Origin: Escherichia phage vB_EcoM_E9.1
Reading direction: 5' to 3' (one strand)
Sequence record: PP886230
Length of the DNA stretch: 64,000 nt
The translations under genes were made by a program, and so were the position numbers. A model generated the notes under the pieces. The model had not been told where the DNA came from. It saw nothing but the letters and a program-made list of their open reading frames with translations, and ran no database searches. Shown piece by piece: positions 49,171 through 62,009 of this stretch (the first letter of the stretch is position 1; each line of letters starts with the position of its first letter).

Positions 49171-49479
49171 ATGTTTCAAACTAACACTCAAGGTTTTGTA
49201 ATCATCGATTTGAATCAAAACAGCGGTCATTGGATGAAACCTACTGACGCATGTATGCAGTTTGATTTCTTAGGTTACAAAATTAGTGTAAGTACTGGTG
49301 CTTCTGTACTGAGAGGTGGTTGTATCGTTGAACATCTGGTAACTGATCCAGAAGGTCGTGAGTATGAAATCGCAGGTTCAGTACAAGATGCCATTATGTT
49401 TGTATGTCAGCGTGAAATGAATGGTTCGAATTCAAATGCACTGACTCATGCTCTTTCTCAAGAAGTGGAGGTTCGTTAA
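49171..49479 (+). CDS. hypothetical protein
   Basis: Track ORF; RBS TGAGGAA. Confidence 0.5.
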   Translation: MFQTNTQGFVIIDLNQNSGHWMKPTDACMQFDFLGYKISVSTGASVLRGGCIVEHLVTDPEGREYEIAGSVQDAIMFVCQREMNGSNSNALTHALSQEVEVR

Positions 49480-49724
49480 TGAAATACATTGTAGCAGTAC
49501 TCGTCGCATTTCTACTCACTGCATGTGATGCTTCTACCAAAGAACGTACAAGTGATTTTGTTCTACCTGCTGAATTAAAAGAAGCAGGGTGTAAGATTTA
49601 TCGTATGCAACAAGATGGTGCTGGTGCGACTTTATACACTGTGTACTGTCCTAATGCAAATACAAGTACTGGATACACTAGCGGTAAAACACGAATCAAC
49701 ACTTCCGTAATTCATGGAGAATAA
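49479..49724 (+). CDS. putative lipoprotein
   Basis: Signal peptide + lipobox MKYIVAVLVAFLLTAC. Confidence 0.5.
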   Translation: MKYIVAVLVAFLLTACDASTKERTSDFVLPAELKEAGCKIYRMQQDGAGATLYTVYCPNANTSTGYTSGKTRINTSVIHGE

Positions 49725-49726
49725 CA

Positions 49727-50095
49727 ATGAGCCTTGATACAACACGTGCAGCAGATTTATTAACTCGTCTGAATGATGAAGAATATCTTGCTGAGATAAA
49801 GTACAAGCTTGACAAACTTGTTCGAAGTGCTGAAGTAATTGAAGTTGAAGGTCACTTACCGATGGATCAATACCATAGGTTCAAGGAAGATATGGTTTAT
49901 TATCCTAATGAAATTTGGATTGAGTGGCAACATTGGACTAACAAAACTCTTCGCATTGAAGGGTATTGTGTGAAGTATGAAAGTTCACCTGGTGATGTTA
50001 CAAAAACTCTATCAATTTGGTGTACAAAAACAAATGAACTCGTTGAGGTGAATTTGAATTATATGAATGGATTCCGTTGGGGTGATGTTAAATGA
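49727..50095 (+). CDS. hypothetical protein
   Basis: Track ORF. Confidence 0.5.
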   Translation: MSLDTTRAADLLTRLNDEEYLAEIKYKLDKLVRSAEVIEVEGHLPMDQYHRFKEDMVYYPNEIWIEWQHWTNKTLRIEGYCVKYESSPGDVTKTLSIWCTKTNELVEVNLNYMNGFRWGDVK

Positions 50096-50367
50096 TTAAA
50101 AAACTCTTGACTGGAATCATTGTGTGCAGTACAATGTTTCTTACAGCATGTAATGATGACGGCAGGTTTAGTGCAAAAGACTTAGTTCGTCAGGATTGTA
50201 CATTCACAGGTAAGTCTTTTATTAACGAGTATGAAATATGTACACAATCAGGTCGTATCTGTGGTGGTTGGGAAAAACGACAGGAGCGATTGTATGTATA
50301 TGAATGCCCTGGACATCACAACAAAGTACTAAGCACACACAAACTTGTTTATGATAAGGTTGAATAA
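50092..50367 (+). CDS. putative lipoprotein
   Basis: Signal peptide + lipobox ...VCSTMFLTAC. Confidence 0.5.
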   Translation: MIKKLLTGIIVCSTMFLTACNDDGRFSAKDLVRQDCTFTGKSFINEYEICTQSGRICGGWEKRQERLYVYECPGHHNKVLSTHKLVYDKVE

Positions 50368-50582
50368 TGACTACCAATGAAATGATGCAGGTTATTTGGG
50401 ATAAAGGTTGTGATATTAAAATCACTAGTACTGATGTTCGTGTATTCAAAACTGAATATATGGAGTACTTGGACCTTGATACTTATAATAATATTGTATC
50501 AATTGAACACAAAGGTGCAGTACTGGAAACCATTGACGTAGTACTCAAGAAAGCTACCGACCTATTAGGAGTGGCAGTGTGA
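50367..50582 (+). CDS. hypothetical protein
   Basis: Track ORF; TAATG coupling. Confidence 0.45.
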   Translation: MTTNEMMQVIWDKGCDIKITSTDVRVFKTEYMEYLDLDTYNNIVSIEHKGAVLETIDVVLKKATDLLGVAV

Positions 50583-50735
50583 ATAACAAAGAGTGGGAAG
50601 ATTACCGCAAGAAGTGCAGGGAGTTTGATAAAGAACTTACTGGTACAGTGAATGCAGTAATGTGGGTATCTGTAATTATTGCAGTTCTTGCGTTGGGTGC
50701 TATTATTATTAATAAATTATTCTAAGGCGAATATC

Positions 50736-50936
50736 ATGTTTACTTTATATCTCGCAGTAGTTCTCACCAATGGTGAAATCACTCGTACTATTGGTGAAGG
50801 TGTATATAAAACACCAGACCAGTGCTACTCTGCCACTCATTGGCCTCGCGATAGTGGGGATGAAACTCGCACTGAATTCAAATGCATGAAAGTAAAAGGT
50901 GATTTTGTTAACCTTAAGGTTATCGAGGCGAAATAA
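50736..50936 (+). CDS. small protein with N-terminal hydrophobic segment
   Basis: Internal ATG of track ORF 50679..50936 behind AAGGCGA. Confidence 0.45.
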   Translation: MFTLYLAVVLTNGEITRTIGEGVYKTPDQCYSATHWPRDSGDETRTEFKCMKVKGDFVNLKVIEAK

Positions 50937-51454
50937 TGGATATTAATGAGTTGTTGAAATTAGTGTTTAATCGTGAACGCCGCGATACAAGACCAATTGA
51001 ATATCAAGATGTGATACGCATTGAAACTGATTTCTGTTATGGTAAAACAACTCATGACCTTTTGAATCTCTCTGGAAAACGCTATGCTGATGTTTGTTTT
51101 TCAGAGAGAAGTGATGGTTCAGAAATAACGAGTACTGATATTGTTTGTTACGCACGCAGTGCTGATAAATCTTATGAAATAGAACTTATATATTCCCCTA
51201 GTTCTAAAACAAATCATCACCGCCATATTTTATATGATGTTTATACACCACCTGGTATTGCTGAATATTTTGTTATTGATTATAGTACTGAAGAAAATGT
51301 GTTTCAACAAAGTTTGATTCATAACTTTGAGGTGAATGATCCATTAGTACCAAAGTTGTTCAAACTACTTGACACCATAGATGTTGATTTTGAATTTGTT
51401 ATGTGCATTAGAACTTCTTTATTCAATGAATTCATGGAACTTTTTAATATATGA
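50936..51454 (+). CDS. EE-x-FFQ family protein
   Basis: ...TEENVFQQSLIHNFEVNDPLVPKLFKLL... Confidence 0.55.
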   Translation: MDINELLKLVFNRERRDTRPIEYQDVIRIETDFCYGKTTHDLLNLSGKRYADVCFSERSDGSEITSTDIVCYARSADKSYEIELIYSPSSKTNHHRHILYDVYTPPGIAEYFVIDYSTEENVFQQSLIHNFEVNDPLVPKLFKLLDTIDVDFEFVMCIRTSLFNEFMELFNI

Positions 51455-51672
51455 ATAGATACTATGTTGTGTATGAACACGTCTCTGAATTTAATAACAT
51501 ACGCGGGTTTTCCAGAGTAGTCACCAAGATGGATGTATTCATTCGTGCTCTTAGTGAAGTAGATGCACTGTTTAAATTGTTTGATGAAATTACAAAGTAT
51601 AACACACCTAAAACACACCGCTATGTGGAAACTGTACATAGCATTATGCTAACTGAAAGTGATGAGGAATGA
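51451..51672 (+). CDS. hypothetical protein
   Basis: Track ORF; ATGA overlap. Confidence 0.45.
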   Translation: MNRYYVVYEHVSEFNNIRGFSRVVTKMDVFIRALSEVDALFKLFDEITKYNTPKTHRYVETVHSIMLTESDEE

Positions 51673-51675
51673 TAA

Positions 51676-51894
51676 ATGAATTTATATCTAGTTGAAGGTT
51701 TAGTACAAGTCTATAAACCAGAAGGTGAAGGTCAACGTTTTTCACACGTAGAAGAATTTAAGTACGTTGTACAGGCTGATGGTCAGTACGATGCGGAAAT
51801 TCAAGTAGATGAATCATTCCGTAAGAAAAATGAAATTGGTAAATTTCAATACCAGAACTTACAATATAAAGTATGGCCTAGTATAAATGACTAA
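51676..51894 (+). CDS. hypothetical protein
   Basis: Track ORF. Confidence 0.45.
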   Translation: MNLYLVEGLVQVYKPEGEGQRFSHVEEFKYVVQADGQYDAEIQVDESFRKKNEIGKFQYQNLQYKVWPSIND

Positions 51895-52102
51895 GATGTG
51901 GTGGTGTCATGGTGTATATAACGTGTATGTAAATGGTAGATATAAAATGTCTAGTACCTATGCAAGACGTGTTAATGCGAACAACCAAGTTGATGCTGCT
52001 TGTGAGATCATTGAGTGGTATGCTGAGTTCAATGCACCTGACTATATGTACGAAATAGTTACAATAAATGTTGTACAAATCGATACATCTTTGATACAAT
52101 AA
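51887..52102 (+). CDS. hypothetical protein
   Basis: Track ORF. Confidence 0.45.
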   Translation: MTKMWWCHGVYNVYVNGRYKMSSTYARRVNANNQVDAACEIIEWYAEFNAPDYMYEIVTINVVQIDTSLIQ

Positions 52103-52134
52103 CCACATCAAAAAAATTGCATCTGAGGATACTT

Positions 52135-52797
52135 ATGTTAGTTAATCTTAATTTCATCACTTCACCTGACTGGGCATTACGTGGAGTTTCTTTAAACTTC
52201 AAGGAAACTATGTTTGACTACATTGGTGAGTGTACATTGGTAAATGCAACTTTTGATCCAAATCATCCGTTTTGGGCTGAAATTCATGATCCAAATGTAA
52301 ACAACAATACATCTGTTATGACTATTGTCCAGACTAAACATGCAGGTATCCTTGCAGGTTATCGACCTGCACATGCAATTGAACACTTCACTGATTACGA
52401 TGTCGTGGATGAATACCCAATGATCCATGAAGATGGAAGTCTATACACATCTGAAGACTTCCGTGCTATCTTTAATAGTACTGATGATATTCTACCAAGT
52501 GGACGTCCACGTCCTGAGTCTTATCTTATGCATCCATCTTATGGTGTAGCAGATACGCTTGAACAGATTATGAATAAGTACAAGAACCTAATTGAAGGTC
52601 CAGAAGAAATTGTCCTGTGCTATCACCCAGTACTGAAGTCTGAACAACCAAAGGATGGTGGATGGCGTTGGCATAAGAATGGTGAGTATATCGGTACTAA
52701 ACGAAGTAAAGAACGTTTTGAGTACTTGTATGATGAGCCAGATGTTGATGTGGTTTTGTGTTATAATTTTATTAAGGTGAAAAAGAAATGTATCTAG
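52135..52797 (+). CDS. hypothetical protein
   Basis: Track ORF 52117..52797 (TTG); ATG 52135 behind GAGGA. Confidence 0.55.
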   Translation: MLVNLNFITSPDWALRGVSLNFKETMFDYIGECTLVNATFDPNHPFWAEIHDPNVNNNTSVMTIVQTKHAGILAGYRPAHAIEHFTDYDVVDEYPMIHEDGSLYTSEDFRAIFNSTDDILPSGRPRPESYLMHPSYGVADTLEQIMNKYKNLIEGPEEIVLCYHPVLKSEQPKDGGWRWHKNGEYIGTKRSKERFEYLYDEPDVDVVLCYNFIKVKKKCI

Positions 52798-53030
52798 TAC
52801 TAAGTTTTGTTGTTGCACTATTGTTTATGTTCTATCCTACACTAGTGGCATTAGCCACTAGGCGAACGATGGTAGATCTCACTACTGTATTCTTGCTAAA
52901 CGTGGCATTAGTACTGGTGTCTATTATCATTCCAGTGAGCTTTACAGTTATTGATATTATTTCGGTATTACTCTTCGTGTTAAGTTATCTTATGCTTATT
53001 GAAGAAACAAATGTTGACAAACGTTCGTAG
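52788..53030 (+). CDS. small membrane protein
   Basis: Track ORF; hydrophobic. Confidence 0.45.
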   Translation: MYLVLSFVVALLFMFYPTLVALATRRTMVDLTTVFLLNVALVLVSIIIPVSFTVIDIISVLLFVLSYLMLIEETNVDKRS

Positions 53031-53041
53031 TACTGTATAAT
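53014..53041 (+). promoter_or_regulatory. sigma70-like promoter
   Basis: TTGACA-N16-TGTATAAT overlapping the end of CDS 52788..53030. Confidence 0.55.
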
Positions 53042-53088
53042 GGTTCCTGTAGTCTGAAACTTAACACTTAAACTTGAGGTAAAAAAAT

Positions 53089-53415
53089 ATGCTATCAGTA
53101 CTAATTTCAATTCCGTCTTTAATTCTGATTTGGCTTCTGGTTTACGAATGCTTTATTACTGATGATAATGATAAAAAAGAGTTCTCTGAGTTGTTTATGC
53201 TTGATTCACCGATTGTGCGTATTTTCTATACAGTCGTTGTGGTTTCAGTAATTGTATGGATTTTGAGTTTTATCTTCCCACTCGGTGCAGTAGTTAAAAC
53301 TTTGGATTTAGTTGAGAACTTTGTTGCAATTATGTGGCTAATCAAAGCACTATTTGCAGGAAATGTTAAAATTTGGATTGATATTATCAAATTCAAGTTC
53401 ACGAATAAGATGTAA
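53089..53415 (+). CDS. membrane protein
   Basis: Track ORF; RBS TGAGGTAAA. Confidence 0.5.
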   Translation: MLSVLISIPSLILIWLLVYECFITDDNDKKEFSELFMLDSPIVRIFYTVVVVSVIVWILSFIFPLGAVVKTLDLVENFVAIMWLIKALFAGNVKIWIDIIKFKFTNKM

Positions 53416-53493
53416 CAGTGAAAATATCTCTATAGTATTAAATACTTCTGTACATATATATAGTACAGAAGTATTTCTCGTTAGAGGTTTGTT

Positions 53494-53853
53494 ATGAAGA
53501 GTTATATAAAATTAATAGCACTTGTGTGTGCATTATTTTCATGTTTTAGTTATGGTGCAGCAGCAGAAACATATTGTCGTAGTACTAAGGGAACGTGGCA
53601 TGTATTGACTAACGACCCTAGAAATGGTAAAAATATAGTTGTTGATGGTGTGATTTATCGTTTTAAAGTAGAAAGTATTATCGGTAATAAAAAAATCTCG
53701 ACTTATAGAGATGATTCTGGTACATTAGCAAACGTAATATTAATTGTAGACCCAAGAACTGGTAATGGTGATATCTATATAGTAATTTACTTGGACTCAT
53801 CGGTACGCCGTGACCTAGATATAGATAAATTGAACTTACACTGTGAAATATAG
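53494..53853 (+). CDS. secreted protein (signal peptide)
   Basis: N-terminal MKSYIKLIALVCALFSCFSYGAAA. Confidence 0.5.
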   Translation: MKSYIKLIALVCALFSCFSYGAAAETYCRSTKGTWHVLTNDPRNGKNIVVDGVIYRFKVESIIGNKKISTYRDDSGTLANVILIVDPRTGNGDIYIVIYLDSSVRRDLDIDKLNLHCEI

Positions 53854-53864
53854 GACTTAAAAAA

Positions 53865-54242
53865 ATGGTAAACACTATTTTACTTTTGTTGTTGAATATT
53901 CCAATTATTCTGTCTTTTTTAATTTCTATTTTTATGGCAGGATATTGTTTAGTTGCAGTAATTCATTTCATTTTAACAAACAAATATGTCCTAATTTCTA
54001 AGCTTGATTCTATTTTTGCTTGCGATTCGATTGCTTATAACTTGTGGTTAATTTGTTCTTGCATTATGGGAGTAACTTTCCTTCTGTATGTATTTGATGT
54101 CCTTGACCAAAAGTTCGTATACATCAGTACTGGATTGGCTCTTTATCCTGCTACGTGGTACTTGATTTACGTTGGTGATATATGGTATAGTACTTATAAA
54201 GAATATCAGTACAAGAAATCACTTAACGTTGGAGGAAAATAA
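53865..54242 (+). CDS. integral membrane protein
   Basis: Track ORF; multiple hydrophobic segments. Confidence 0.5.
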   Translation: MVNTILLLLLNIPIILSFLISIFMAGYCLVAVIHFILTNKYVLISKLDSIFACDSIAYNLWLICSCIMGVTFLLYVFDVLDQKFVYISTGLALYPATWYLIYVGDIWYSTYKEYQYKKSLNVGGK

Positions 54243-54244
54243 TC

Positions 54245-54595
54245 ATGAAAATTATTTTATTTTTTGTATGTATGTTAATGTGTGGATTGTCATATGCTGA
54301 ACCATTGGAAGGTTTAGTTTGTACAGATGGTAATATTAAACATATCTATCAAGGTGATAGTGACGATCGAGATATTGTATATATTGATGGACAATCATAT
54401 ACGTTTGTTAAAGAGCATACAGTAGGCGACATTAGCTTCACTGAGTTTTCTAACGACACAGACCCTAACTTCTTAGCGTTTATTGAAGTAGATGTATATG
54501 AAGATAGTAATGGCACACAATATGCTAAATTAGTTATGATGCGTCGTGGTGCTAAAGAAACTAGTTTTGGTGGCTTGTGTAAATATAAGGATTGA
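54245..54595 (+). CDS. secreted protein (signal peptide)
   Basis: N-terminal MKIILFFVCMLMCGLSYA. Confidence 0.5.
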   Translation: MKIILFFVCMLMCGLSYAEPLEGLVCTDGNIKHIYQGDSDDRDIVYIDGQSYTFVKEHTVGDISFTEFSNDTDPNFLAFIEVDVYEDSNGTQYAKLVMMRRGAKETSFGGLCKYKD

Positions 54596-54599
54596 TATT

Positions 54600-54791
54600 A
54601 TGTTGATTTATCAAAGTGATAATATTCGTGTTATGCAGCATCCCTACTTACAAATCTTTGATGTGCAGCAGTATATGGAAGGTGATGACCCAAGAACCTA
54701 TGGTCGTAAGTATGATTACTTCACTGTAAAGCAGTGTAAAAATATTAACGAAGTACGACAATTAGTTCAAGAACTTCAAAACAAAGGTTGA
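54600..54791 (+). CDS. hypothetical small protein
   Basis: Internal ATG of track ORF 54546..54791 behind AAGGA. Confidence 0.4.
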   Translation: MLIYQSDNIRVMQHPYLQIFDVQQYMEGDDPRTYGRKYDYFTVKQCKNINEVRQLVQELQNKG

Positions 54792-54817
54792 CTTCGGTCA
54801 GCCTTTTTTGTTATAAT
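54784..54817 (+). terminator. terminator-promoter cassette, copy 1 of 5
   Basis: AAGGTTGAC-TTCG-GTCAGCCTT hairpin + TTTTTT overlapping stop codon; TTGACT in the stem and TATAAT 18 nt downstream. Confidence 0.6.
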
Positions 54818-54845
54818 TCTCTTAATAAATTAGAGGATTTTAATT

Positions 54846-55286
54846 ATGTATGTATATCGTTTTGAACTTAAATTTAGTTACATTGAACCTAACTTAGATC
54901 CTGCACGAACTGTAGGTCCGTTTGCACGGTATTCAACTAGATACAGTACTAAAAATGGATTTGACCGTTTGCTTATGACTACACCTTCTCAATTCCAACC
55001 TGAACCAACTGAGGATGGGATCTATTCAATCAAAAGTGGATGGGTATTTGGCTGTCAAAGTTTGAAAGATTTGTTCAGATTCTTCACTATGGACTTGGGT
55101 AAATTGCATCGTGCTGGGTTTGCTATATCTGTATATGAAGTTCCAGACCACCATGTAGACATTGGTCGTAATCAGGTTCAGTACTATTGCGGTAGTGCTA
55201 AATTAGTTCGTATCATGTCAGTTAAGGAAGCAAAGGATGAGTTCCGACAAAGTAAAAGAGAAACACATGAGGTAATATATGGATAA
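54846..55286 (+). CDS. hypothetical protein
   Basis: Track ORF; RBS AGAGGA. Confidence 0.5.
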   Translation: MYVYRFELKFSYIEPNLDPARTVGPFARYSTRYSTKNGFDRLLMTTPSQFQPEPTEDGIYSIKSGWVFGCQSLKDLFRFFTMDLGKLHRAGFAISVYEVPDHHVDIGRNQVQYYCGSAKLVRIMSVKEAKDEFRQSKRETHEVIYG

Positions 55287-55623
55287 AACTCAAATAGAAT
55301 TAAAGAAATTTGTTTCATTCTATTTTCCTGATGACCCACGTAATTCACAAAAAGATATTGAATATTATAATATCCTATCTAAACAGTTAATGAGAAAGTT
55401 TCAACAGTGTTTAACTATATTCAATACAGATGGAAGACGTAGATACCGAATCGTTTCAATGAATGATGAAAACGCAAATTTCTTTGATTACGATGTAGTT
55501 TTTAGAGCATATAATGATGATCGTATAAAATTAAATTATGATCAAATTATACTTGACCTGAATGTTATATGTGTTATAATCACTCACGTAGCCGAACTTA
55601 ATGGTTTTAAAGAATGGTATTGA
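55279..55623 (+). CDS. hypothetical protein
   Basis: Track ORF. Confidence 0.5.
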   Translation: MDKTQIELKKFVSFYFPDDPRNSQKDIEYYNILSKQLMRKFQQCLTIFNTDGRRRYRIVSMNDENANFFDYDVVFRAYNDDRIKLNYDQIILDLNVICVIITHVAELNGFKEWY

Positions 55624-55637
55624 ATAGAGGATAACAT

Positions 55638-55904
55638 ATGAAGCTTAAATTACAATATAATGGATTTACTTTACGTAATGATACTGAATTTATTAATCGT
55701 TCTCCTGGTGCTGAACTGTTTTTACGAGAGATGAACATTCCTTTCATCATTACTACAGTGGGCGACCGTGAAGTTCTACAATATGCAGAGCATCCGATTA
55801 TTGATGTTCCTTGGTACTCTGAGCATATGTACATGGATATGGCACGTCGCTACAACTGTAAGTTCGTAGTTGAAGGTGATAAAATTACAGTCGAATTTAA
55901 ATAA
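55638..55904 (+). CDS. hypothetical protein
   Basis: Track ORF; RBS AGAGGA. Confidence 0.5.
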   Translation: MKLKLQYNGFTLRNDTEFINRSPGAELFLREMNIPFIITTVGDREVLQYAEHPIIDVPWYSEHMYMDMARRYNCKFVVEGDKITVEFK

Positions 55905-55916
55905 GGTAAATTAAAA

Positions 55917-56210
55917 ATGATCAGTACTTCAGTTAATGAAAGCATCGTCGCTGACGTAGAAATGGTTAAAGAATGTGCAGATGAAACTCTTCGTGATATG
56001 TACATTAATGATTTAATTACTGAATACGGTAGTCGTGGTGTACACGAATTTATTCGTTTAAGTGGAGAGTTGATGAAAAATCGAATTCGTATGAAGCTTA
56101 ACGTACATCCAAAAGCATGGGCATTTACATTAAAATACGCAGAAGATATTGTGAATTTGCGTCGAACTGAAGTATATGAACGTTTGCACAATGGTATGTT
56201 AGATAAATGA
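55917..56210 (+). CDS. hypothetical protein
   Basis: Track ORF. Confidence 0.5.
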   Translation: MISTSVNESIVADVEMVKECADETLRDMYINDLITEYGSRGVHEFIRLSGELMKNRIRMKLNVHPKAWAFTLKYAEDIVNLRRTEVYERLHNGMLDK

Positions 56211-56262
56211 TTGTAAAAAAGGAATTCTTAAATGAATTCCTTTTTGTTTATAAGGTATAGTA

Positions 56263-56484
56263 ATGAAATATATAGTACTTGTACTGATATTATTCAGTAC
56301 TGTTGTAAGTGCTAAACAAAAAGAATATGTTAAATGTATAAATTATGAAGAGAAATATGTTGAAACATATAAAAAAAGTATAATTAAAAACGTTTCGATT
56401 ACTAACAGAGCAACAATCATTGTACTTAAAAATGGGTTAATTATGCTATATAAACCACACGTTAAATGTGAAATTATTAATTGA
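56263..56484 (+). CDS. small secreted protein
   Basis: N-terminal MKYIVLVLILFSTVVSA. Confidence 0.45.
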   Translation: MKYIVLVLILFSTVVSAKQKEYVKCINYEEKYVETYKKSIIKNVSITNRATIIVLKNGLIMLYKPHVKCEIIN

Positions 56485-56491
56485 GGAAATT

Positions 56492-57064
56492 ATGAATCGT
56501 AAAGGTCGTTTTAAAGTATCAAAAAAGAACAAAAGTTCTAGGTTTAAACCTATTGTTTTAACAGTTAAATCTAACAAAGAATTAACTGCACTTAGTAAAA
56601 AGATAATTTCATCTAAGATTGAAGTATCATACGTAAATTCATTAAAATATATGAATGTCAAACCACTGGACCAACTCATTTCACTTATATTTGAACGTAA
56701 TGATTTTGAGATATCAGTAGATGATTATAGAGCCTATAATGCTGGTTTCATTAATGTTACTTGTAATAAAAAACTAACTGAGTTGGAAAATTTGTCATGT
56801 ATAATAAATCTAGATAAAGGTGTTGTGAAGTACCATTTTGTACATTTCACTAATATCAATAATGGAATGGGTGTACAATCCAGACCTATAGTGCCTACGT
56901 GTGATGTTACTAAATTAGCAAAGCTCAATGATGAAGAATATTTTCAAGAAAGCATTGTAACTGAGCATTTAGATGATATAATAGCTACTTACAAAGAATG
57001 CATATGGGTGTTGAATGCTATAAAACCTAAATTGTGTTTAATGAATATTGTTCGTGATTTATGA
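56492..57064 (+). CDS. EE-x-FFQ family protein
   Basis: ...NDEEYFQESIVTEHLDDIIATYKE...; ATG 56492 behind GAGGAAA. Confidence 0.55.
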   Translation: MNRKGRFKVSKKNKSSRFKPIVLTVKSNKELTALSKKIISSKIEVSYVNSLKYMNVKPLDQLISLIFERNDFEISVDDYRAYNAGFINVTCNKKLTELENLSCIINLDKGVVKYHFVHFTNINNGMGVQSRPIVPTCDVTKLAKLNDEEYFQESIVTEHLDDIIATYKECIWVLNAIKPKLCLMNIVRDL

Positions 57065-57077
57065 ATGGGGAATCGTA

Positions 57078-57521
57078 ATGAGTTGGGTAAATGTTAATAG
57101 TATTGAACTTAACGAACAAGATATTTTTGCATTTGTAAATTTAACTAATAACACAGTACTAAAAGGGCGTTTGTTCAGTGCTAGTGATGGGTACAAATGG
57201 ATCTCTTTGATGGATGATAGTGGTGTGATTTATAATGTAATGCAATTACCCCAATGGGTATATAGTAACACTGCTGACGATGTTCTTACCGCAGTTATGC
57301 GTGAGTTTGAAAAACTCCCAGGTGGTGATATCAAAAACAAAGTTTTTAATGCAGAACGTAAAAATTATACAGCACAGCAGTTGGAATCCCTTGCCATTGC
57401 TGCTTATCAAGCTGCTATTAAGAAGCCAGAGTGCGTTATTCTTAAGTATGTACCAGACTTAAAACTTACGTTGGAAGACATGGATGCATTCATTTTTACA
57501 TCTGAACTTGATCAGTACTAA
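57078..57521 (+). CDS. hypothetical protein
   Basis: Track ORF 57048..57521 (TTG); ATG 57078 behind GGGGAA. Confidence 0.5.
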   Translation: MSWVNVNSIELNEQDIFAFVNLTNNTVLKGRLFSASDGYKWISLMDDSGVIYNVMQLPQWVYSNTADDVLTAVMREFEKLPGGDIKNKVFNAERKNYTAQQLESLAIAAYQAAIKKPECVILKYVPDLKLTLEDMDAFIFTSELDQY

Positions 57522-57528
57522 TTTAACT

Positions 57529-57558
57529 TTGGGACAACCATTCTTATTATGATATAAT
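57529..57558 (+). promoter_or_regulatory. promoter, extended -10 with TTGGGA -35-like element
   Basis: TTGGGAC-N17/18-TATGATATAAT; ~80-nt leader with hairpin TGTCATT...AATGACA. Confidence 0.45.
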
Positions 57559-57636
57559 GTTTTATGTCATTCGATATAAATGACAACGGAACTATAAATA
57601 TTATAGTAAAATTTATCTCTTATAGGAGTTATAAAA

Positions 57637-58020
57637 ATGGTTGATAAATGGAATAAGAAAGATCCATCACATGATGTTGATATTTCTGGTCTAGACAATG
57701 CACATAAGCACAAGTATCTAGATTCACTAGGTCTTCTAAAACCAGACCAAAGTCTTGCACATGATCGTCCATCCCGTGAAAAAGCATTTAGCCTAGAATC
57801 ACTAGGTCATGAGCTTAATCGTGTGTTTGAGGATCACCCAATCTATGTACGTGATATTATCGAGAAACTTAAAGTAACTCCTAAAGAGCACTTTAAAGCA
57901 ACTGTACACTCTGCATTCCGTGCATTACATGAATCTCTAAAGAAAACTCACAATCTTCGTAAAATTCATGATGAAATCGTGAATGCAATCGAAAGTGAAA
58001 AACATAAGTTCAAGAAGTAA
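57637..58020 (+). CDS. hypothetical protein (shares SLGLL motif with 58266..59543)
   Basis: Track ORF; RBS TAGGAG; ...HKHKYLDSLGLLKPDQ... Confidence 0.5.
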   Translation: MVDKWNKKDPSHDVDISGLDNAHKHKYLDSLGLLKPDQSLAHDRPSREKAFSLESLGHELNRVFEDHPIYVRDIIEKLKVTPKEHFKATVHSAFRALHESLKKTHNLRKIHDEIVNAIESEKHKFKK

Positions 58021-58025
58021 TAAAA

Positions 58026-58060
58026 AGGGGTTGACTAAGGTCAGCCCTTTGTTGTATCAT
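58026..58060 (+). terminator. terminator-promoter cassette, copy 2 of 5 (variant loop TAAG)
   Basis: GGGTTGAC-TAAG-GTCAGCCC hairpin + TTTGTTG; TTGACT in the stem, TATCAT downstream. Confidence 0.5.
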
Positions 58061-58089
58061 AAATTCTCAATATAACTGAGGTATCATAT

Positions 58090-58203
58090 ATGCAAGGTTT
58101 GAAATTTGTAGTTGCTGCACTCATCGCCGCAGTACTGGTTGGTGGTGTATTCTATGTAGTGGATCAAAAAGTAAATCCACCTGCACAAGAACAATCTAAG
58201 TAA
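58090..58203 (+). CDS. small membrane peptide (37 aa)
   Basis: Below track cutoff; RBS TGAGG; MQGLKFVVAALIAAVLVGGVFYVV... Confidence 0.4.
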   Translation: MQGLKFVVAALIAAVLVGGVFYVVDQKVNPPAQEQSK

Positions 58204-58209
58204 CAAAAT

Positions 58210-58242
58210 AAGGTTGACTTCGGTCAGCCTTTTCTTTATACT
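58210..58242 (+). terminator. terminator-promoter cassette, copy 3 of 5
   Basis: AAGGTTGAC-TTCG-GTCAGCCTT hairpin + TTTCTTT; TTGACT-N17-TATACT. Confidence 0.55.
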
Positions 58243-58265
58243 ATAAATATAGACATAGAGAAAAA

Positions 58266-59543
58266 ATGAAATCTATGGAGAGAAATCAAATGCCAAGTAA
58301 TTTTACTGATAAAAATGGTGGTAACATGGCTGGTCACTCTGATAAATGGAGTGAACGCAACCGCCGTCCAAATAGTTATCAAGCAGGTCAAGGTTCACGT
58401 GGATCACGTAACCAAGGAACTGGTCTAGCTGGTAAAGCAAACGCAGAAGCAGGTGAAGTTAAGAGTACTGAGAACATGACTGAGCTAGAAAAGCTACGTT
58501 ATGTTAATTCATTGGGACTTCTTAATGCTACACAAAAACAACGCCTAGCTGATATGGAACGTGAAGAAAAAGAAAAATCTGCTCCTGCTAAAGAAGAACC
58601 AAAACAAGAAGCACCAAAGGCGGTTAACCCTGTCAAAGAACTGTCGGATAAGTTAGGTAAGATTTTTGCTAATAAACCACAACTTATCCAAGGTATTGTG
58701 AAAGAATTGCAATCTGTACCTAAAGAAGAATTAAAAGTCAAAGCACAAGCTGTGCTTGATGCAATGAGTGGAAATACCAGTACTGAACCAACTGAAGTAT
58801 TCAGTACTATAATGCGTGCACTTGAAGGTACGCAACAAGGTGATGTGCCTGCACAAGAGGAAGTAAGTCTTGAAAGCGTACTTAAAACATTTGATAGTAT
58901 TGGTAAAGAAGACCGTGCTAATGCTCAACAAGTTAAGAATGTACTAGCTAAGTTAGAAAACCGTCTGGAAGGTAAAGACGATAAGATTAAATTAGTATCT
59001 GATGCAGTTAACGATGCACTTAAATCTTATGTACAAGGTGAAAAGAGTCGTTTTGTAACTGCAATGGATGCTGCATTCAATACTATGAAAAAGTATGAAG
59101 CTGATCATGGTGAGAAGGTTACACGAGATGGTTATCTGATGCGTGATGATGAAGAAGGTGCAGTAGAACAGAACGATGTTCATTCAGACGAAGAAATTGA
59201 TGACATGGAAGCTGAACTGTCACAAGACCGCCAAATGACTGAAAAATCCCATAACGAACTACAGAAATTAATGCAATGGGTTGCAGATGTTGGTGAAAAA
59301 GCTGGTGCTGATAAGAAGAGTATAAACCGAAATCTTAGTTGGATTAAAGATAAAGTTGGTAACAACGCTCGTAAACTACAAAAAGCGTGGACTGATGTAG
59401 TGAATGGTGCTGTTGACATTGATGTTGAATCCGGTGAGGCATATGATTATGCATTGACTACACTTGATGACTCTTTCCGTGATTACGAAAATGGAAATGT
59501 AACTCCTTGGGAAAAGGACATCATGAGCAAATACGGTAAATGA
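58266..59543 (+). CDS. hypothetical protein (425 aa), Gly/Ser-rich N-terminus, acidic coiled-coil rest
   Basis: Track ORF; ...LEKLRYVNSLGLLNATQ... paralogous to 57637 motif. Confidence 0.55.
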   Translation: MKSMERNQMPSNFTDKNGGNMAGHSDKWSERNRRPNSYQAGQGSRGSRNQGTGLAGKANAEAGEVKSTENMTELEKLRYVNSLGLLNATQKQRLADMEREEKEKSAPAKEEPKQEAPKAVNPVKELSDKLGKIFANKPQLIQGIVKELQSVPKEELKVKAQAVLDAMSGNTSTEPTEVFSTIMRALEGTQQGDVPAQEEVSLESVLKTFDSIGKEDRANAQQVKNVLAKLENRLEGKDDKIKLVSDAVNDALKSYVQGEKSRFVTAMDAAFNTMKKYEADHGEKVTRDGYLMRDDEEGAVEQNDVHSDEEIDDMEAELSQDRQMTEKSHNELQKLMQWVADVGEKAGADKKSINRNLSWIKDKVGNNARKLQKAWTDVVNGAVDIDVESGEAYDYALTTLDDSFRDYENGNVTPWEKDIMSKYGK

Positions 59544-59551
59544 TAAAACAA

Positions 59552-59584
59552 AAGGTTGACTTCGGTCAGCCTTTTTTTGTAAAT
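59552..59584 (+). terminator. terminator-promoter cassette, copy 4 of 5
   Basis: AAGGTTGAC-TTCG-GTCAGCCTT hairpin + TTTTTTT overlapping stop; TTGACT in stem. Confidence 0.6.
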
Positions 59585-59614
59585 ACAAAAGAGGAATTAA
59601 GAAGAGGGATTACA

Positions 59615-59866
59615 ATGAAAAAATATATTATATTTGGAATTGTATTATTTTCCAGTACTGCTTATGGTGCAGATTATCATTGCTCCGTAGCAAGGCAGGA
59701 TTTCAGAAATGGGGAGTTCTATACTACCTCATACACAAAAGGAATAATACACGACACCGACAGAACTATTGGATTTAATGCGTTTGACAACAAAGATTCA
59801 TATACTTCAGGTATACTATCTGAGCGTAAGACTGATGTAATGGGAATAGAAAAAGAGTTCCGGTGA
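59615..59866 (+). CDS. secreted protein (signal peptide)
   Basis: Internal ATG of track ORF 59540..59866 behind AGAGGGA; MKKYIIFGIVLFSSTAYGA. Confidence 0.5.
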   Translation: MKKYIIFGIVLFSSTAYGADYHCSVARQDFRNGEFYTTSYTKGIIHDTDRTIGFNAFDNKDSYTSGILSERKTDVMGIEKEFR

Positions 59867-59876
59867 TTCAGTAGCA

Positions 59877-60176
59877 ATGTGCAATGGCATTGAAAGTACT
59901 AAAACAATTTATTATAATAATGAACGTAACTATCGTTTTCATAATTTAACCACAAATAAAAGTTTACTATTTTACAATTGTAAAGAAGTAATACTCCCAT
60001 CAGACAATAGCTGTACTCCAACTAATCAACCCCCAGCACAATGTAATACTCCCTCTGAACCTGATAAAAATAAAAAAGACAAAAAACCTTTAAAAGATAA
60101 AAAGAAAGATAAAAAACCTAATCCGTTTAAAAATAATAAACAAGCACAACCCGATATGACGTGTAAAATAAAATAA
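59877..60176 (+). CDS. hypothetical protein with Lys-rich low-complexity tail
   Basis: Track ORF; ...DKNKKDKKPLKDKKKDKKPNPF... Confidence 0.35.
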   Translation: MCNGIESTKTIYYNNERNYRFHNLTTNKSLLFYNCKEVILPSDNSCTPTNQPPAQCNTPSEPDKNKKDKKPLKDKKKDKKPNPFKNNKQAQPDMTCKIK

Positions 60177-60185
60177 GGATATATA

Positions 60186-60605
60186 ATGAAAAAGATTTTT
60201 TTAAGTATTATTTTAGTACTTTTTAGTTTTAATGTATATGCAGCAGATGCTAAACAGGTTGCAAATACAGTAAAAGATGTTATAGTAGATAATGCTCCTA
60301 CATTAGAGGAAATTGGGGTAAAAACTTGTGATATAGTAATATATAATTTAGTTAATGATGAACGAGTTATGTTGAATACGTATGAACAAGTAGTCCCATT
60401 GGTTGAATCTGGTGATGCTTTTAGCTTTACATATAAAGTTAAATTAACAGGAGGGGTTGAAGTTAATCTTGACATTGATACCGCTTCAGTACTAAAAGAT
60501 AAACTAGGATATGTGTTCAATCGTATTCGTGAAGAAGGTCATCTTAAGTATGTTTATGAAAGTAAAATACTAAAACGTGCAATAGTTATAGAAAACTGTA
60601 AATGA
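60186..60605 (+). CDS. secreted protein (signal peptide)
   Basis: N-terminal MKKIFLSIILVLFSFNVYAADA. Confidence 0.5.
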   Translation: MKKIFLSIILVLFSFNVYAADAKQVANTVKDVIVDNAPTLEEIGVKTCDIVIYNLVNDERVMLNTYEQVVPLVESGDAFSFTYKVKLTGGVEVNLDIDTASVLKDKLGYVFNRIREEGHLKYVYESKILKRAIVIENCK

Positions 60606-60611: not shown

Positions 60612-60646
60612 AAGGGTTGACTTCGGTCAGCCTTTTTTGTTATGAT
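60612..60646 (+). terminator. terminator-promoter cassette, copy 5 of 5
   Basis: AAGGGTTGAC-TTCG-GTCAGCCTT hairpin + TTTTTT; TTGACT-N18-TATGAT. Confidence 0.6.
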
Positions 60647-60674
60647 GTTGGTATTAACTACAGAGGATAAAGTA

Positions 60675-61316
60675 ATGACTAAGCAAGACATATTCAAAAC
60701 TTTAATTGACATTTTGCGTCCATCAAAAACTCGTTGTGCGATGGAGTTTGATATTCCTTATGCTGAACGCGTAATCTTTCCACAAGTTAAAGCTGCTGGA
60801 CTTACTTTGCTTGGAATGGGGATGTACTCTGTAGTAGTTGAACATAAAAACTATCCTGGGCGTGCATTTAAAGTAACCACTTCACGCTGGGATGGTTTTC
60901 GTGCTTATGCAAAGTACTGCATTGAAAACGCAGGAACCAAGTTTCTTCCAGTGATCTACAGTGCAAACGAACAAGGAAACTTTGGATGGTATGAGATGGA
61001 CAAGTACTATCCTATAATTAAACAAAAAAATAATTATGATGACTTTGTTAGTACTAAAATTGGAGATTTATATTCTTATGCACATGCTGGTCAGTACGCT
61101 ACTTCAGTGAATGATATGCGTGGAAATTCTGAAGAGATTGCTATTGCGACGGTCGCTGCTAACATCATGAAAGAGTTTCACGGGCGTTTTGTACCAGACA
61201 TTCATTCCAGTAATGTCATGATGGATAAAGATGGCAATGTATTCATTACTGATCCTCTTTCGTGTGATGTACGTAGAGAAATACCAGTTACTGAAGAAGA
61301 TCCAGTTTTTTATTGA
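60675..61316 (+). CDS. hypothetical protein, possible protein-kinase-like fold
   Basis: ...FVPDIHSSNVMMDKDGNVFITDPLS... resembles kinase catalytic loop (D-x-H-x2-N) plus metal-binding Asp; ATG 60675 behind AGAGGA. Confidence 0.45.
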   Translation: MTKQDIFKTLIDILRPSKTRCAMEFDIPYAERVIFPQVKAAGLTLLGMGMYSVVVEHKNYPGRAFKVTTSRWDGFRAYAKYCIENAGTKFLPVIYSANEQGNFGWYEMDKYYPIIKQKNNYDDFVSTKIGDLYSYAHAGQYATSVNDMRGNSEEIAIATVAANIMKEFHGRFVPDIHSSNVMMDKDGNVFITDPLSCDVRREIPVTEEDPVFY

Positions 61317-62000: not shown

Positions 62001-62009
62001 GGATTGGTA

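What the first reader, a model, noticed from the sequence alone, without database searches (positions are those of the whole stretch)
49479..60605. Dense cluster of signal-peptide, lipobox and small membrane proteins
At least two lipoproteins (49479, 50092), five signal-peptide proteins (53494, 54245, 56263, 59615, 60186) and several small multi-pass membrane proteins lie here, many behind their own promoters. Early-expressed envelope proteins in lytic phages are frequent superinfection-exclusion or receptor-masking factors.
Basis: partly seen in the sequence, partly recalled or inferred. Interest (0 to 1): 0.4.

Follow-up and report, generated by a model that had tools for sequence, protein, structure and literature searches.

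The report
Exported-protein gene cluster, jumbo coliphage
A stretch of a 350-kb E. coli jumbo phage really is packed with small genes for secreted, lipid-anchored and membrane proteins that look early-expressed and are partly carried on swappable promoter/terminator cassettes, but none is demonstrably related to any known superinfection-exclusion protein, so that function remains a reasonable, untested guess.

Summary
The window is an Asteriusvirus jumbo coliphage, 99.7% identical to phage JP4.

**Observation: confirmed.**
- All seven named proteins have canonical lipobox or Sec signal peptides that orthologues keep.
- Five small membrane proteins lie among them.
- Signal-peptide/lipoprotein genes number 7 of 30 here against 3 of 120 elsewhere in the window (p = 5e-4).
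- The genes are non-virion and under purifying selection.
- They sit in a region dense in sigma-70-type promoters.
- Only the two virion-protein genes carry the T4-late motif TATAAATA.

**New detail.**
- A UUCG hairpin whose stem holds the -35 box occurs five times. It flanks cassettes that relatives gain or lose exactly at the hairpin, as with T4 PeSLs.
- 53494 and 54245 are paralogous secreted proteins modelled as 8-stranded beta-barrels. Each follows a multi-pass membrane protein, and the module is restricted to this lineage.
- Lipoprotein 49479 belongs to a family present in 571 phage records, including FelixO1. Asp usually follows its lipid cysteine, which predicts inner-membrane retention.

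**Interpretation: partly supported.** Early timing and envelope targeting are plausible. The public "Cor", "Llp" and "Imm" labels on homologues or neighbouring genes failed sequence, fold, context and shuffle tests. Exclusion is unproven and, if real, probably acts at the inner membrane or periplasm. An ordinary kind of region with good experimental candidates.

The parts
49479..49724 (+). Lipoprotein, 81 aa (JP4_CDS0155; FelixO1 ORF91 family). Lipobox LTA|C16, Asp at +2, conserved Cys38 and Cys57, CPN and GK motifs.
   Evidence: phrog_902, 1.5e-13; 571 phage records; lipobox 83/83; two further Cys in 75/83; +2 Asp in 41/83; AF2 pLDDT 71; no PDB fold or sequence match.
50092..50367 (+). Lipoprotein, 91 aa. 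Lipobox LTA|C20, +2 Asn, four Cys in the mature part.
   Evidence: phrog_31263; Asteriusvirus, plus 41% identity in Klebsiella fENko-Kae01 and Salmonella 7t3; the Turkey5 divergent orthologue keeps lipobox LTGC; phrog_31263 at 3.4e-10.
50579..50725 (+). 48-aa protein with a charged N-terminus and one C-terminal TM segment.
   Evidence: (phrog_38271).
50736..50936 (+). 66-aa protein with an uncharged hydrophobic N-terminus and two Cys. A possible further exported protein, with a sub-threshold DUF1482 hit.
   Evidence: PF07358, E 0.0018, 18.6 bits against a cutoff of 25; phrog_15821. Not classified as exported by my rules.
52788..53030 (+). 80-aa membrane protein with 2-3 TM segments and a P-T-L-V-A...LN motif. 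It heads the conserved envelope module.
   Evidence: conserved in L014 and L015. Imm homology tested and not supported.
53014..53041 (+). Perfect sigma-70-type promoter (TTGACA, 16 nt, TATAAT) driving 53089-54791.
53089..53415 (+). 108-aa membrane protein with 3 TM segments.
   Evidence: (phrog_31401).
53440..53476 (+). 14-bp hairpin between 53089 and 53494.
   Evidence: -16.4 kcal/mol, z = -5.8.
53494..53853 (+). Secreted protein, 119 aa. Paralogue A of the Cys...Cys beta-barrel family.
   Evidence: (C28, Y55, G64 and C117 invariant).
53865..54242 (+). 125-aa multi-pass membrane protein with a conserved C-terminal W-Y-L-I-Y..D-I-W-Y motif. It always directly follows a barrel gene.
   Evidence: (phrog_31707).
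54245..54595 (+). Secreted protein, 116 aa. Paralogue B. Modelled as eight consecutive beta-strands with calycin/lipocalin-like fold matches; Cys26 and Cys112.
   Evidence: pLDDT 81, pTM 0.69; Tp0751, E 0.011, TM 0.50; 13 clusters among 1.84e9.
54783..54817 (+). Hairpin-promoter cassette copy 1: AAAGGTTGAC-UUCG-GTCAGCCTTT, then a T-run and TATAAT. It acts as terminator of the 53089 operon and promoter of 54846.
56263..56484 (+). Secreted protein, 73 aa, with Cys25 and Cys69. Preceded by a terminator hairpin at 56216-56245.
   Evidence: phrog_31284; Turkey5 divergent orthologue with a signal peptide.
57593..58020 (+). T4-late-type TATAAATA motif (57593) and a virion protein gene (57637-58020). 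Not part of the envelope set: a late island inside the region.
   Evidence: phrog_16530; phAPEC6 gp037c, 5 peptides.
58026..58203 (+). Hairpin-promoter copy 2 (58029) and a 37-aa single-TM protein (58090-58203). One mobile cassette.
   Evidence: phrog_35037; absent from UE-S1, with the junction in the hairpin; expanded to three envelope genes in vB_Ec-M-J.
58210..59543 (+). Hairpin copy 3 (58212), TATAAATA (58242) and a virion protein gene (58290-59543).
   Evidence: phrog_20398; phAPEC6 gp035c, 8 peptides.
59551..60605 (+). Hairpin copy 4 (59554), then a three-gene cassette: 59615-59866 (secreted, 83 aa), 59877-60176 (99 aa, Lys-rich, no signal peptide), 60186-60605 (secreted, 139 aa, Cys48 and Cys138).
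   Evidence: whole cassette absent from UE-S1, hybrid hairpin at the junction; two allele classes of 60186: 99-100% and about 41% identity.
60612..61316 (+). Hairpin-promoter copy 5 (60615) and a T7 gp0.7-like protein kinase (60675-61316). Marks the right-hand boundary and serves as an early-type marker.
   Evidence: (phrog_15752, 4e-91).

Best explanation
This is a hyperplastic accessory arm of an Asteriusvirus (Rak2-like) jumbo coliphage, transcribed by the host RNA polymerase. It carries a concentrated load of small proteins exported to the cell envelope.

There are three units:
1. A tightly packed operon (49171-53030) holding two Sec/Lol-processed lipoproteins.
2. A self-contained transcription unit: a perfect sigma-70 promoter at 53014, then 53089-54791, then a terminator hairpin at 54786. 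It encodes membrane protein, secreted beta-barrel, membrane protein, secreted beta-barrel. It is conserved as a module in divergent relatives, so each barrel probably works with its membrane partner at the inner-membrane/periplasm interface.
3. Cassettes flanked by a UUCG hairpin that doubles as terminator and promoter (58090; 59615-60186). They are gained, lost or swapped among relatives by recombination within the hairpin, and in relatives they carry other envelope-protein genes.

Proposed mechanism. Soon after infection the host RNA polymerase transcribes these genes. The products are exported, disulfide-bonded and, for the two lipoproteins, lipidated, and they change the envelope of the infected cell. 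My best guess is that at least some of them protect the infected cell from a second phage. This would act at the periplasm or inner-membrane step (DNA entry or cell-wall attack), as T4 Imm and Sp or plasmid TrbK do. Masking an outer-membrane receptor, as Cor and Llp do, is less likely.

Shown: export signals, enrichment, conservation, purifying selection, absence from virions, promoter and hairpin architecture, and cassette indels. Inferred: early timing, pairing of barrel and membrane protein, and the exclusion function.
For: - Identity of the phage.
- Export signals and enrichment.
- Lipobox 83/83, with Asp at +2 in 41/83.
- Module conserved in L014 and L015.
- Barrel model (pLDDT 81).
- All genes have dN/dS below 0.45.
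- None of the envelope proteins appears in the phAPEC6 virion proteome.
- Sigma-70-type promoters, 58 on the + strand against 7 on the - strand.
- TATAAATA occurs only before the two virion-protein genes.
- A T7 0.7-type kinase is adjacent.
- Five hairpin copies against 0 expected, stable folds, conserved across the genus with indel junctions inside the hairpin.
- Relatives fill the same slots with other exported or membrane proteins.
- Envelope genes diverge more than their neighbours in four relatives.
- Literature: Rak2-like phages are thought to have an early region of short ORFs behind RpoD-like promoters (PMC5259590). PA5oct uses the host RNA polymerase, and its early genes are small unknowns with a few structural proteins interspersed (PMC7318152). 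PeSL cassettes are described in T4-like phages (PMC2839356, PMC4122927).
Against: - No protein here is a demonstrable homologue of a characterised exclusion protein. Cor, Llp, Imm and TrbK hits are all sub-threshold or driven by the signal peptide.
- No expression data exist for this genus.
- The 59615 cassette has a weak -10 box.
- Promoters are dense across the whole window, not only at envelope genes.
- The higher divergence of envelope genes comes with higher dS and no significant rise in dN/dS (0.16 against 0.11, p = 0.23). This indicates mosaic exchange, so it gives no sign of an arms race.
- The 49479 family is conserved across phages of many hosts, which fits a general envelope function as well as exclusion.
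- The signal-peptide calls come from my own rules, not a trained predictor.
Confidence: 0.4

Rival explanations
1. The proteins take over the envelope for purposes other than exclusion. Examples: counteracting membrane-associated host defence or abortive-infection systems, altering transport or membrane potential, inhibiting periplasmic host enzymes, or binding a small hydrophobic ligand in the lipocalin-like barrels.
For: - The same export, early-type and non-virion evidence applies.
- The barrel fold resembles ligand-binding calycins.
- The 49479 family is conserved across phages with unrelated receptors and hosts, which suits a generic host target.
- There is no homology to exclusion proteins.
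Against: - There is no homology to any anti-defence or enzyme-inhibitor family either.
- The fold matches are weak, none at E <= 0.001 in the PDB.
- Cassette-like gain and loss, with replacement by other envelope genes, is what strain-specific competition factors typically show.
Confidence: 0.3
2. Some of the small membrane and secreted proteins control lysis, as holin, antiholin (T4 RI-like periplasmic sensor), spanin or lysis-inhibition components.
For: - Sizes and topologies are holin-like: 52788 (2-3 TM, charged C-terminus), 50579 and 58090.
- Secreted small proteins could act as RI-like antiholins.
- The lysis genes of this genus, apart from a T4-type lysozyme, are not described in the UE-S1 paper I searched.
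Against: - No endolysin lies in or next to the region.
- The lipoproteins have no adjacent type-II membrane partner, since 49727 and 49171 have no TM segment, and they are not proline-rich, so they are not o-spanin-like.
- The genes sit behind sigma-70-type promoters, not the late TATAAATA motif.
- No PHROG lysis category is hit.
Confidence: 0.12
3. The proteins are membrane-associated assembly factors or minor virion components, for example scaffolds for head or tail assembly at the membrane.
For: Two true virion-protein genes (57637, 58290) are interleaved with the cluster.
Against: - Virion mass spectrometry of phAPEC6 lists only those two from this region.
- Those two alone carry the late motif.
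- Several envelope genes are dispensable in close relatives.
Confidence: 0.05
4. The cluster is a chance grouping of hydrophobic N-termini in AT-rich ORFans with no real export or function.
For: The genome is AT-rich (GC 0.31-0.37), which favours Ile/Leu/Phe/Lys-rich N-termini. The enrichment test is post hoc, and no trained predictor was run.
Against: - Lipobox kept in 83/83 members.
- Signal peptides and Cys pairs kept at 20-60% identity.
- dN/dS is 0.05-0.42.
- One confident folded model begins right after the predicted cleavage site.
- Enrichment p = 5e-4.
Confidence: 0.03

Closest known systems
T5 Llp (lytic conversion lipoprotein) and the Cor lipoproteins of T1, phi80 and N15
   Same: Like 49479 and 50092, these are small phage-encoded lipoproteins of about 60-70 mature residues with intramolecular disulfide(s), made by a lytic phage (PMC9586334). 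GenBank records already label the homologues this way.
   Different: - No sequence match: Cor PHROG at E 0.008 over the signal peptide only; Llp absent from PDB hits even at E <= 10.
- No fold match.
- Not adjacent to a receptor-binding-protein gene.
- 49479 has Asp at +2, which predicts inner-membrane retention, whereas Llp acts from the inner leaflet of the outer membrane on FhuA.
- The family spans phages that do not use FhuA, such as FelixO1 and Vibrio phages.
T4 Imm and Sp (spackle)
   Same: These are early, small, envelope-located proteins that block a second infection at the periplasm or inner membrane. Imm is about 83 aa with 2 TM segments, similar to 52788 and to the extra genes in vB_Ec-M-J and Turkey5.
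   Different: - 52788 has no Pfam Imm_superinfect hit.
- Its profile scores 6.8 bits against T4 Imm, within the range of shuffles and controls.
- The relatives' 'Imm' gene reaches only 15.7 bits against a 27.9-bit cutoff.
- None of the secreted proteins hits an annotated exclusion PHROG.
PeSLs (promoter-early stem-loops) of T4-like phages
   Same: A composite terminator and sigma-70-like promoter, followed by a Shine-Dalgarno site and start codon. They are repeated in a hyperplastic region and sit at the junctions of ORFan indels between close relatives (PMC2839356, PMC4122927).
   Different: - The host is a Rak2-like jumbo phage, not a T4-like one.
- Here the -35 hexamer (TTGACT) is inside the stem, closed by a UUCG tetraloop, whereas PeSL stems lie just upstream of the promoter.
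- Copy 3 is followed by a late-type TATAAATA in place of a strong -10 box.
RP4 TrbK entry-exclusion lipoprotein
   Same: A small lipoprotein that blocks DNA entry. It is the top NCBIfam hit for 49479. Its inner-membrane location is my recollection, not something checked here. It is a functional analogue of what an Asp+2 lipoprotein could do.
   Different: The hit is 15 bits against a cutoff of 23 and covers the signal peptide region (residues 4-40), so there is no evidence of homology.
Calycin/lipocalin-fold bacterial proteins such as Treponema pallidum Tp0751
   Same: An exported 8-stranded antiparallel beta-barrel of about 100 residues. It is the best structural neighbour of 54245.
   Different: E = 0.011, TM 0.50, 12-14% identity: fold-level resemblance only. 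No shared motifs were tested, and the function of the phage proteins is unknown.

Membership tests
Cor superinfection-exclusion lipoproteins (PHROG 1119) | Significant match to the family profile over the mature protein | tested here: not met
   E = 0.0079, 17.6 bits, residues 1-48 of 81 (signal peptide plus about 30 residues). The real family is phrog_902 (1.5e-13, unknown function).
Cor superinfection-exclusion lipoproteins (PHROG 1119) | Lipoprotein signal peptide with lipobox | tested here: met
   LTA|C, conserved in 83/83 family members.
Cor superinfection-exclusion lipoproteins (PHROG 1119) | Blocks FhuA-dependent phage infection | not testable with these tools
   Needs plating assays. 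The family also occurs in FelixO1-like and Vibrio phages, which I do not believe depend on FhuA (my knowledge, not checked here).
T5 Llp (lytic conversion lipoprotein) | Sequence similarity to Llp | tested here: not met
   neither 49479, its 83-sequence profile nor 50092 hits Llp among PDB sequences at E <= 10. The FhuA-Llp structure was solved (PMC9586334); I assume its chains are in the PDB copy searched.
T5 Llp (lytic conversion lipoprotein) | Llp fold | tested here: inconclusive
   no PDB neighbour better than E = 4.9. The model is only moderate (pLDDT 71), and AF2 is reported to mis-predict free Llp (PMC9586334). 50092 was not modelled.
T5 Llp (lytic conversion lipoprotein) | Gene directly downstream of the receptor-binding-protein gene | tested here: not met
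   the neighbours are small hypothetical early genes. In FelixO1 the gene lies between the DNA polymerase/HNH and ligase genes.
T5 Llp (lytic conversion lipoprotein) | Outer-membrane sorting | tested here: not met
   Asp at +2 in the window protein and in 41/83 members. Asp+2 is the E. coli Lol-avoidance signal (established knowledge). This is a prediction only, and the +3 residue (Ala) may weaken it.
T4 Imm / Pfam PF14373 Imm_superinfect | Match to PF14373 at the gathering score, or significant similarity to T4 Imm | tested here: not met
   no hit for 52788 at E <= 1; the orthologue profile scores 6.8 bits against T4 Imm, 25/2000 shuffles do as well, and control g13416 scores 7.2; the relative's 'Imm' gene reaches 15.7 bits against a cutoff of 27.9.
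T4 Imm / Pfam PF14373 Imm_superinfect | About 80-aa inner-membrane protein with two TM segments | tested here: met
   (52788). Generic, not diagnostic.
PeSL-type composite terminator/promoter cassettes | Stable stem-loop combined with a sigma-70-like promoter, a Shine-Dalgarno site and a start codon, repeated in a variable region | tested here: met
   5 copies, 0 expected; z = -3.9; UUCG loop; U-run.
PeSL-type composite terminator/promoter cassettes | Indels between close relatives have their junctions at the elements | tested here: met
   UE-S1 lacks 58090 and 59615-60186, with hybrid hairpins at the junctions. vB_Ec-M-J has three genes between the copies that flank 58090.
PeSL-type composite terminator/promoter cassettes | Stem-loop lies just upstream of the -35 box, in a T4-like phage | tested here: not met
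   the -35 box (TTGACT) is inside the stem. The phage is an Asteriusvirus.
Two-component spanins (o-spanin lipoprotein) | Lipoprotein gene embedded in or adjacent to a type-II membrane i-spanin gene | tested here: not met
   the genes flanking both lipoprotein genes (49171, 49727, 50367) have no TM segment.
Calycin/lipocalin superfamily (for 53494 and 54245) | Eight-stranded antiparallel beta-barrel | tested here: inconclusive
   eight consecutive strands, pLDDT 81; best hits are lipocalin-fold proteins, FABPs and avidins, but none at E <= 0.001 and TM is about 0.5.

The most novel reading that the evidence does not exclude
Two new exclusion-type systems may be hiding here.

1. The 49479/FelixO1-ORF91 lipoprotein family could be a widespread, uncharacterised class of periplasmic lipoprotein anchored in the inner membrane. 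It is present in 571 phage records spanning Felixounavirus, Certrevirus, Demerecviridae of Vibrio and several jumbo-phage genera. It would block a conserved step of DNA entry or cell-wall penetration by other phages, as a phage counterpart of plasmid TrbK.

2. The secreted lipocalin-like barrel and its adjacent multi-pass membrane protein (53494+53865, duplicated as 53089+54245) could form a two-component envelope system unique to Asteriusvirus.
Probability: 0.15. Interest if true: 0.6.

Novelty: new member of a known kind. Interest (0 to 1): 0.33.

Why it matters
**Phage therapy.** Jumbo coliphages of this genus are being proposed for therapy. More than 80% of their genes have no known function (83% of phAPEC6 gene products, PMC7247149).

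**Candidates for experiment.** This work narrows about a dozen 'hypothetical proteins' to a defined class: early-type, exported and non-structural. It gives a short list to test:
- one lipoprotein family shared by hundreds of lytic phages
- one lineage-specific module of membrane protein plus secreted barrel
- two mobile cassettes

**Annotation quality.** The 'Cor', 'lytic conversion lipoprotein' and 'immunity to superinfection' labels already in GenBank for these or neighbouring genes rest on sub-threshold similarity and should not be propagated.

**Genome evolution.** The hairpin-promoter cassettes extend the T4 PeSL idea of modular shuffling to Rak2-like jumbo phages.

Tried and rejected
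- **52788 as a T4 Imm homologue.** Motif similarity (P-T-L-V-A...LN) led me to fetch T4 Imm. The profile score was 6.8 bits, matched by 25/2000 shuffles and exceeded by an unrelated control. Rejected.
- **49479 as Cor.** Only a signal-peptide-level PHROG hit. Rejected as membership.
- **49479 or 50092 as Llp.** No sequence hit, and no fold hit for 49479. Rejected as membership.
- **Diversifying selection on the envelope genes.** Protein divergence is higher, but dS is higher too and dN/dS is not significantly different. Replaced by 'mosaic exchange of older alleles'.
- **59615 and 59877 as one frameshifted gene**, suggested by a missing C-terminal Cys. The downstream frame opens only 14 nt before the stop, and the junction is conserved in vB_Ec-M-J. 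Rejected.
- **Spanin role for the lipoproteins.** No i-spanin-like neighbour. Rejected.
- **Known RNA families in the leaders and hairpins.** None at E <= 0.1.
- **The PF16225 tag** precomputed for all 49479-family proteins was not reproduced by my Pfam scan at E <= 1. I could not establish what it means.
- **PDB fold search for the lipoprotein.** Nothing.
- **Literature.** The Sharanji, fEgEco12, phAPEC6 and UE-S1 papers contain nothing on these genes, their promoters or exclusion. No paper on the FelixO1 ORF91 family was found.

Full report
**Source and layout**

The finding region is 99.7% identical to Escherichia phage JP4 and 96-99% identical to SP27, phAPEC6, slurp01, PBECO4 and 121Q. 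These are Asteriusvirus jumbo myoviruses of about 350 kb in the Rak2-like group. All genes are on the + strand and GC is 0.31-0.37. In GenBank nearly every gene in 49-61 kb is 'hypothetical protein'.

Two records carry exclusion-type labels:
- vB_Ec-M-J calls the 49479 homologue 'Cor superinfection exclusion protein'. It also has two extra genes labelled 'immunity to superinfection'.
- fEgEco12 calls the homologues of both 49479 and 50092 'lytic conversion lipoprotein'. Its paper does not discuss this.

I called 150 + strand ORFs and classified them by explicit rules.

| Gene | Signal |
|---|---|
| 49479 | lipobox LTA\|C |
| 50092 | lipobox LTA\|C |
| 53494 | Sec signal peptide, AAA\|E |
| 54245 | Sec signal peptide, SYA\|E |
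| 56263 | Sec signal peptide, VSA\|K |
| 59615 | Sec signal peptide, AYG\|A |
| 60186 | Sec signal peptide, VYA\|A |

PHROG 28901 aligns 1-83/83, and a terminator hairpin lies inside the longer annotated ORF.

The membrane proteins are 52788, 53089 and 53865 (multi-pass) and 50579 and 58090 (single-pass).

Signal-peptide or lipoprotein genes are 7 of 30 in the region against 3 of 120 outside it (Fisher p = 5e-4). For any envelope class the counts are 12/30 against 21/120, p = 0.01. The test is post hoc. Two background ORFs are really tRNA genes.

The signals are conserved where sequence is not:
- The lipobox is present in 83/83 members of the 49479 family.
- Orthologues and paralogues at 20-60% identity keep their signal peptides and cysteine pairs.
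- Six of the seven exported proteins have 2 or 4 cysteines in the mature part. Four of the five Sec proteins have the last cysteine 1-4 residues from the C-terminus.

No trained predictor was available, so this stays rule-based plus comparative.

**Are they real, functional, non-structural genes?**

Pairwise dN/dS against UE-S1 and vB_Ec-M-J is 0.02-0.42 for the envelope genes, which means purifying selection. The phAPEC6 virion proteome lists only gp035c and gp037c from this region. These are the homologues of 58266/58290 and 57637.

**Timing**

Near-consensus sigma-70 promoters number 58 on the + strand and 7 on the - strand of the window. At least ten are perfect, and most lie 25-50 nt before a start codon. 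They are spread over the whole window and are not specific to envelope genes.

The T4-late-like motif TATAAATA occurs only twice on the + strand in 64 kb, against about 10 expected from composition. Both copies lie 36-40 nt upstream of the two virion-protein genes. The CBB paper reports the same late motif before structural genes in Rak2-like phages. It also reads the stretch of short ORFs rich in RpoD-type promoters as the early region (PMC5259590). PA5oct, a transcriptomically studied relative, uses the host RNA polymerase, and its early genes are small unknowns with a few structural proteins interspersed (PMC7318152). A T7 gp0.7-type kinase abuts the cluster.

Early expression is therefore a reasonable inference, not a demonstrated fact. 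The claim 'many behind their own promoters' holds only for 53089, 58090 and, weakly, 59615 and 56263. The other envelope genes are internal operon genes.

**Hairpin-promoter cassettes**

The sequence GGTTGAC-TTCG-GTCAGCC, followed by a T-run and a -10 box, occurs five times, all between 54.8 and 60.6 kb, with 0 expected.
- It folds stably with a UUCG tetraloop.
- It carries the -35 hexamer inside its stem.
- It is conserved in every Asteriusvirus locus examined.
- It also matches a site annotated as -35/-10 signals in Yersinia phage fHe-Yen9-03.

UE-S1 lacks exactly the genes between copies 2 and 3 (58090) and between copies 4 and 5 (59615-60186). Its junction hairpins are hybrids of the flanks. 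In vB_Ec-M-J the slot between copies 2 and 3 holds three envelope genes.

This is the behaviour described for PeSLs in T4-like phages (PMC2839356, PMC4122927). Here it occurs in a different phage lineage and with a different geometry.

**The envelope module 52788-54595**

A perfect promoter at 53014 drives 53089 (3 TM), 53494 (secreted), 53865 (multi-pass), 54245 (secreted) and a 63-aa protein. The unit ends at hairpin copy 1.

53494, 54245 and vB_Ec-M-J gene 541 form one family. Cys28, Tyr55, Gly64 and Cys117 are invariant, and there is a D-G-x-x-Y-x-F motif.

AF2 models 54245 confidently (pLDDT 81, pTM 0.69) as eight consecutive beta-strands after the signal peptide. The best PDB neighbours are calycin-type barrels: Tp0751 at E 0.011 and TM 0.50, then lipocalins, FABPs and avidins. 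None is significant. In the viral library only its own orthologues and uncharacterised phage proteins match.

An exhaustive profile search of 1.84 billion representatives found 13 clusters. All are on Asteriusvirus-like contigs of about 350 kb or fragments of them.

In two divergent contigs the order is kept. In the more distant one, a barrel gene is still directly followed by the 53865-like membrane gene. I infer a functional pairing at the inner membrane or periplasm.

This block is far more divergent than its flanks: 43-78% against 87-95% identity in vB_Ec-M-J. Envelope genes as a class diverge more in all four relatives (p = 0.015-0.04). But dS rises with dN, and dN/dS is not significantly higher. 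The cause is mosaic exchange of old alleles, not measurable positive selection.

**The lipoproteins**

49479 belongs to a family found in 571 phage records. It includes FelixO1 ORF91, phiTE_051, Serratia BF gp084, Vibrio Demerecviridae and Yersinia and Erwinia jumbo phages. All are annotated as hypothetical or simply 'lipoprotein'.

Family features:
- The lipid cysteine is invariant.
- Two further cysteines are present in 75/83 members, alongside conserved CPN and GK motifs.
- The residue after the lipid cysteine is Asp in 41/83, Glu in 13 and Asn in 10.

By established knowledge, Asp at +2 retains E. coli lipoproteins in the inner membrane.

The AF2 model is moderate (pLDDT 71) and has no PDB neighbour. 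The family profile hits only lipoprotein signal peptides among PDB sequences, and Llp is not among the hits. The Cor PHROG hit is E 0.008 over residues 1-48. The top NCBIfam hit, TrbK, is below its cutoff. The gene is never next to a receptor-binding-protein gene.

50092 is restricted to Asteriusvirus and a few Klebsiella and Salmonella jumbo phages. It has no informative hit.

**The 'Imm' question**

52788 and the relatives' 'immunity' genes share size, topology and a short motif with T4 Imm. The similarity does not exceed shuffled or unrelated controls, and Pfam support is sub-threshold.

**Verdict**

What is there is a hyperplastic accessory region of a jumbo phage. It is probably early, enriched in exported proteins, and partly organised as PeSL-like mobile cassettes.

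The superinfection-exclusion reading is plausible by analogy, but it is not supported by any homology. If it is true, it more likely concerns the periplasm or inner membrane than outer-membrane receptor masking. This is a known kind of region, with new uncharacterised families inside it.

Noticed in passing
window 41483-43760: A second, smaller run of envelope genes outside the finding: 41483 (151 aa, signal peptide), 41938 (N-terminal TM), 42916 (2 TM; phrog_15839, 'membrane protein', moron category) and 43335 (about 4 hydrophobic segments).
   Followed up: partly
window 61662-62351: Two adjacent paralogous 3-TM proteins (112 and 113 aa, both phrog_19285, 25% identical to each other) just beyond the finding's right edge. 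The envelope-rich stretch therefore extends past 60605.
   Followed up: partly
window 49078-49170: The 119-nt leader before 49171 contains a 13-bp stem (GGGAAUGCAGUGA...UCACUGCGUUCCC) with a 25-nt loop. Its energy is -26.8 kcal/mol (z = -4.8) and it matches no Rfam family. It could be an attenuator, a processing site or a small RNA.
   Followed up: partly
window 57593 and 58242 (whole-window scan): TATAAATA is strongly depleted: 2 copies on the + strand and 1 on the - strand, against about 10 expected per strand. Both + strand copies lie 36-40 nt before the virion-protein genes. The motif therefore looks like a functional late promoter that is avoided elsewhere.
   Followed up: yes
window 48700, 53014, 63343; also 30655, 31134, 31895: A second promoter class has an extended conserved core: TTGAC[AT], about 10 nt, then CAGTACTG(T/A)TATAAT. 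The three copies at 30.6-31.9 kb share an identical TTGACTAAATAGTTCAGTACTG upstream half, next to tRNA genes.
   Followed up: no
window 29017-34071: Six tRNA genes: Gly-TCC, Ser-TGA, Ser-GCT, Met-CAT, Asn-GTT and Thr-TGT. My mechanical ORF calls at 32132 and 32242 overlap two of them and are spurious.
   Followed up: yes
window 28555-30483: A family of three small paralogues (58-59 and 54 aa, starting MTHEEWM...) at 28555, 28813 and 30319. The first two are 55% identical, and the genes are interleaved with tRNA genes.
   Followed up: no
L012 (phAPEC6 MK817115) 980-1226, 1592-1867, 4991-5350: The phAPEC6 GenBank record leaves the homologues of 49479, 50092 and 53494 unannotated, with gaps in its CDS table. 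Three of the seven exported proteins are therefore missing from that reference annotation.
   Followed up: partly
L002 9057-9293 and 11082-11638; L008 9850-10086: vB_Ec-M-J and Turkey5 carry extra small 2-3-TM proteins and one more Cys...Cys secreted protein (EcMJ_541) at the same slots where the window has nothing. The 'immunity to superinfection' labels on two of them rest on sub-threshold similarity.
   Followed up: yes
window 60186-60605: The secreted 139-aa protein exists in two sharply distinct allele classes across Asteriusvirus genomes, 99-100% identical or only about 41% identical, with nothing in between.
   Followed up: no
Every member of the 49479 family carries a precomputed Pfam tag, PF16225. 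My own Pfam-A scan of the window protein at E <= 1 did not report that family. The reason is unexplained; it may be a version or threshold difference.
   Followed up: no
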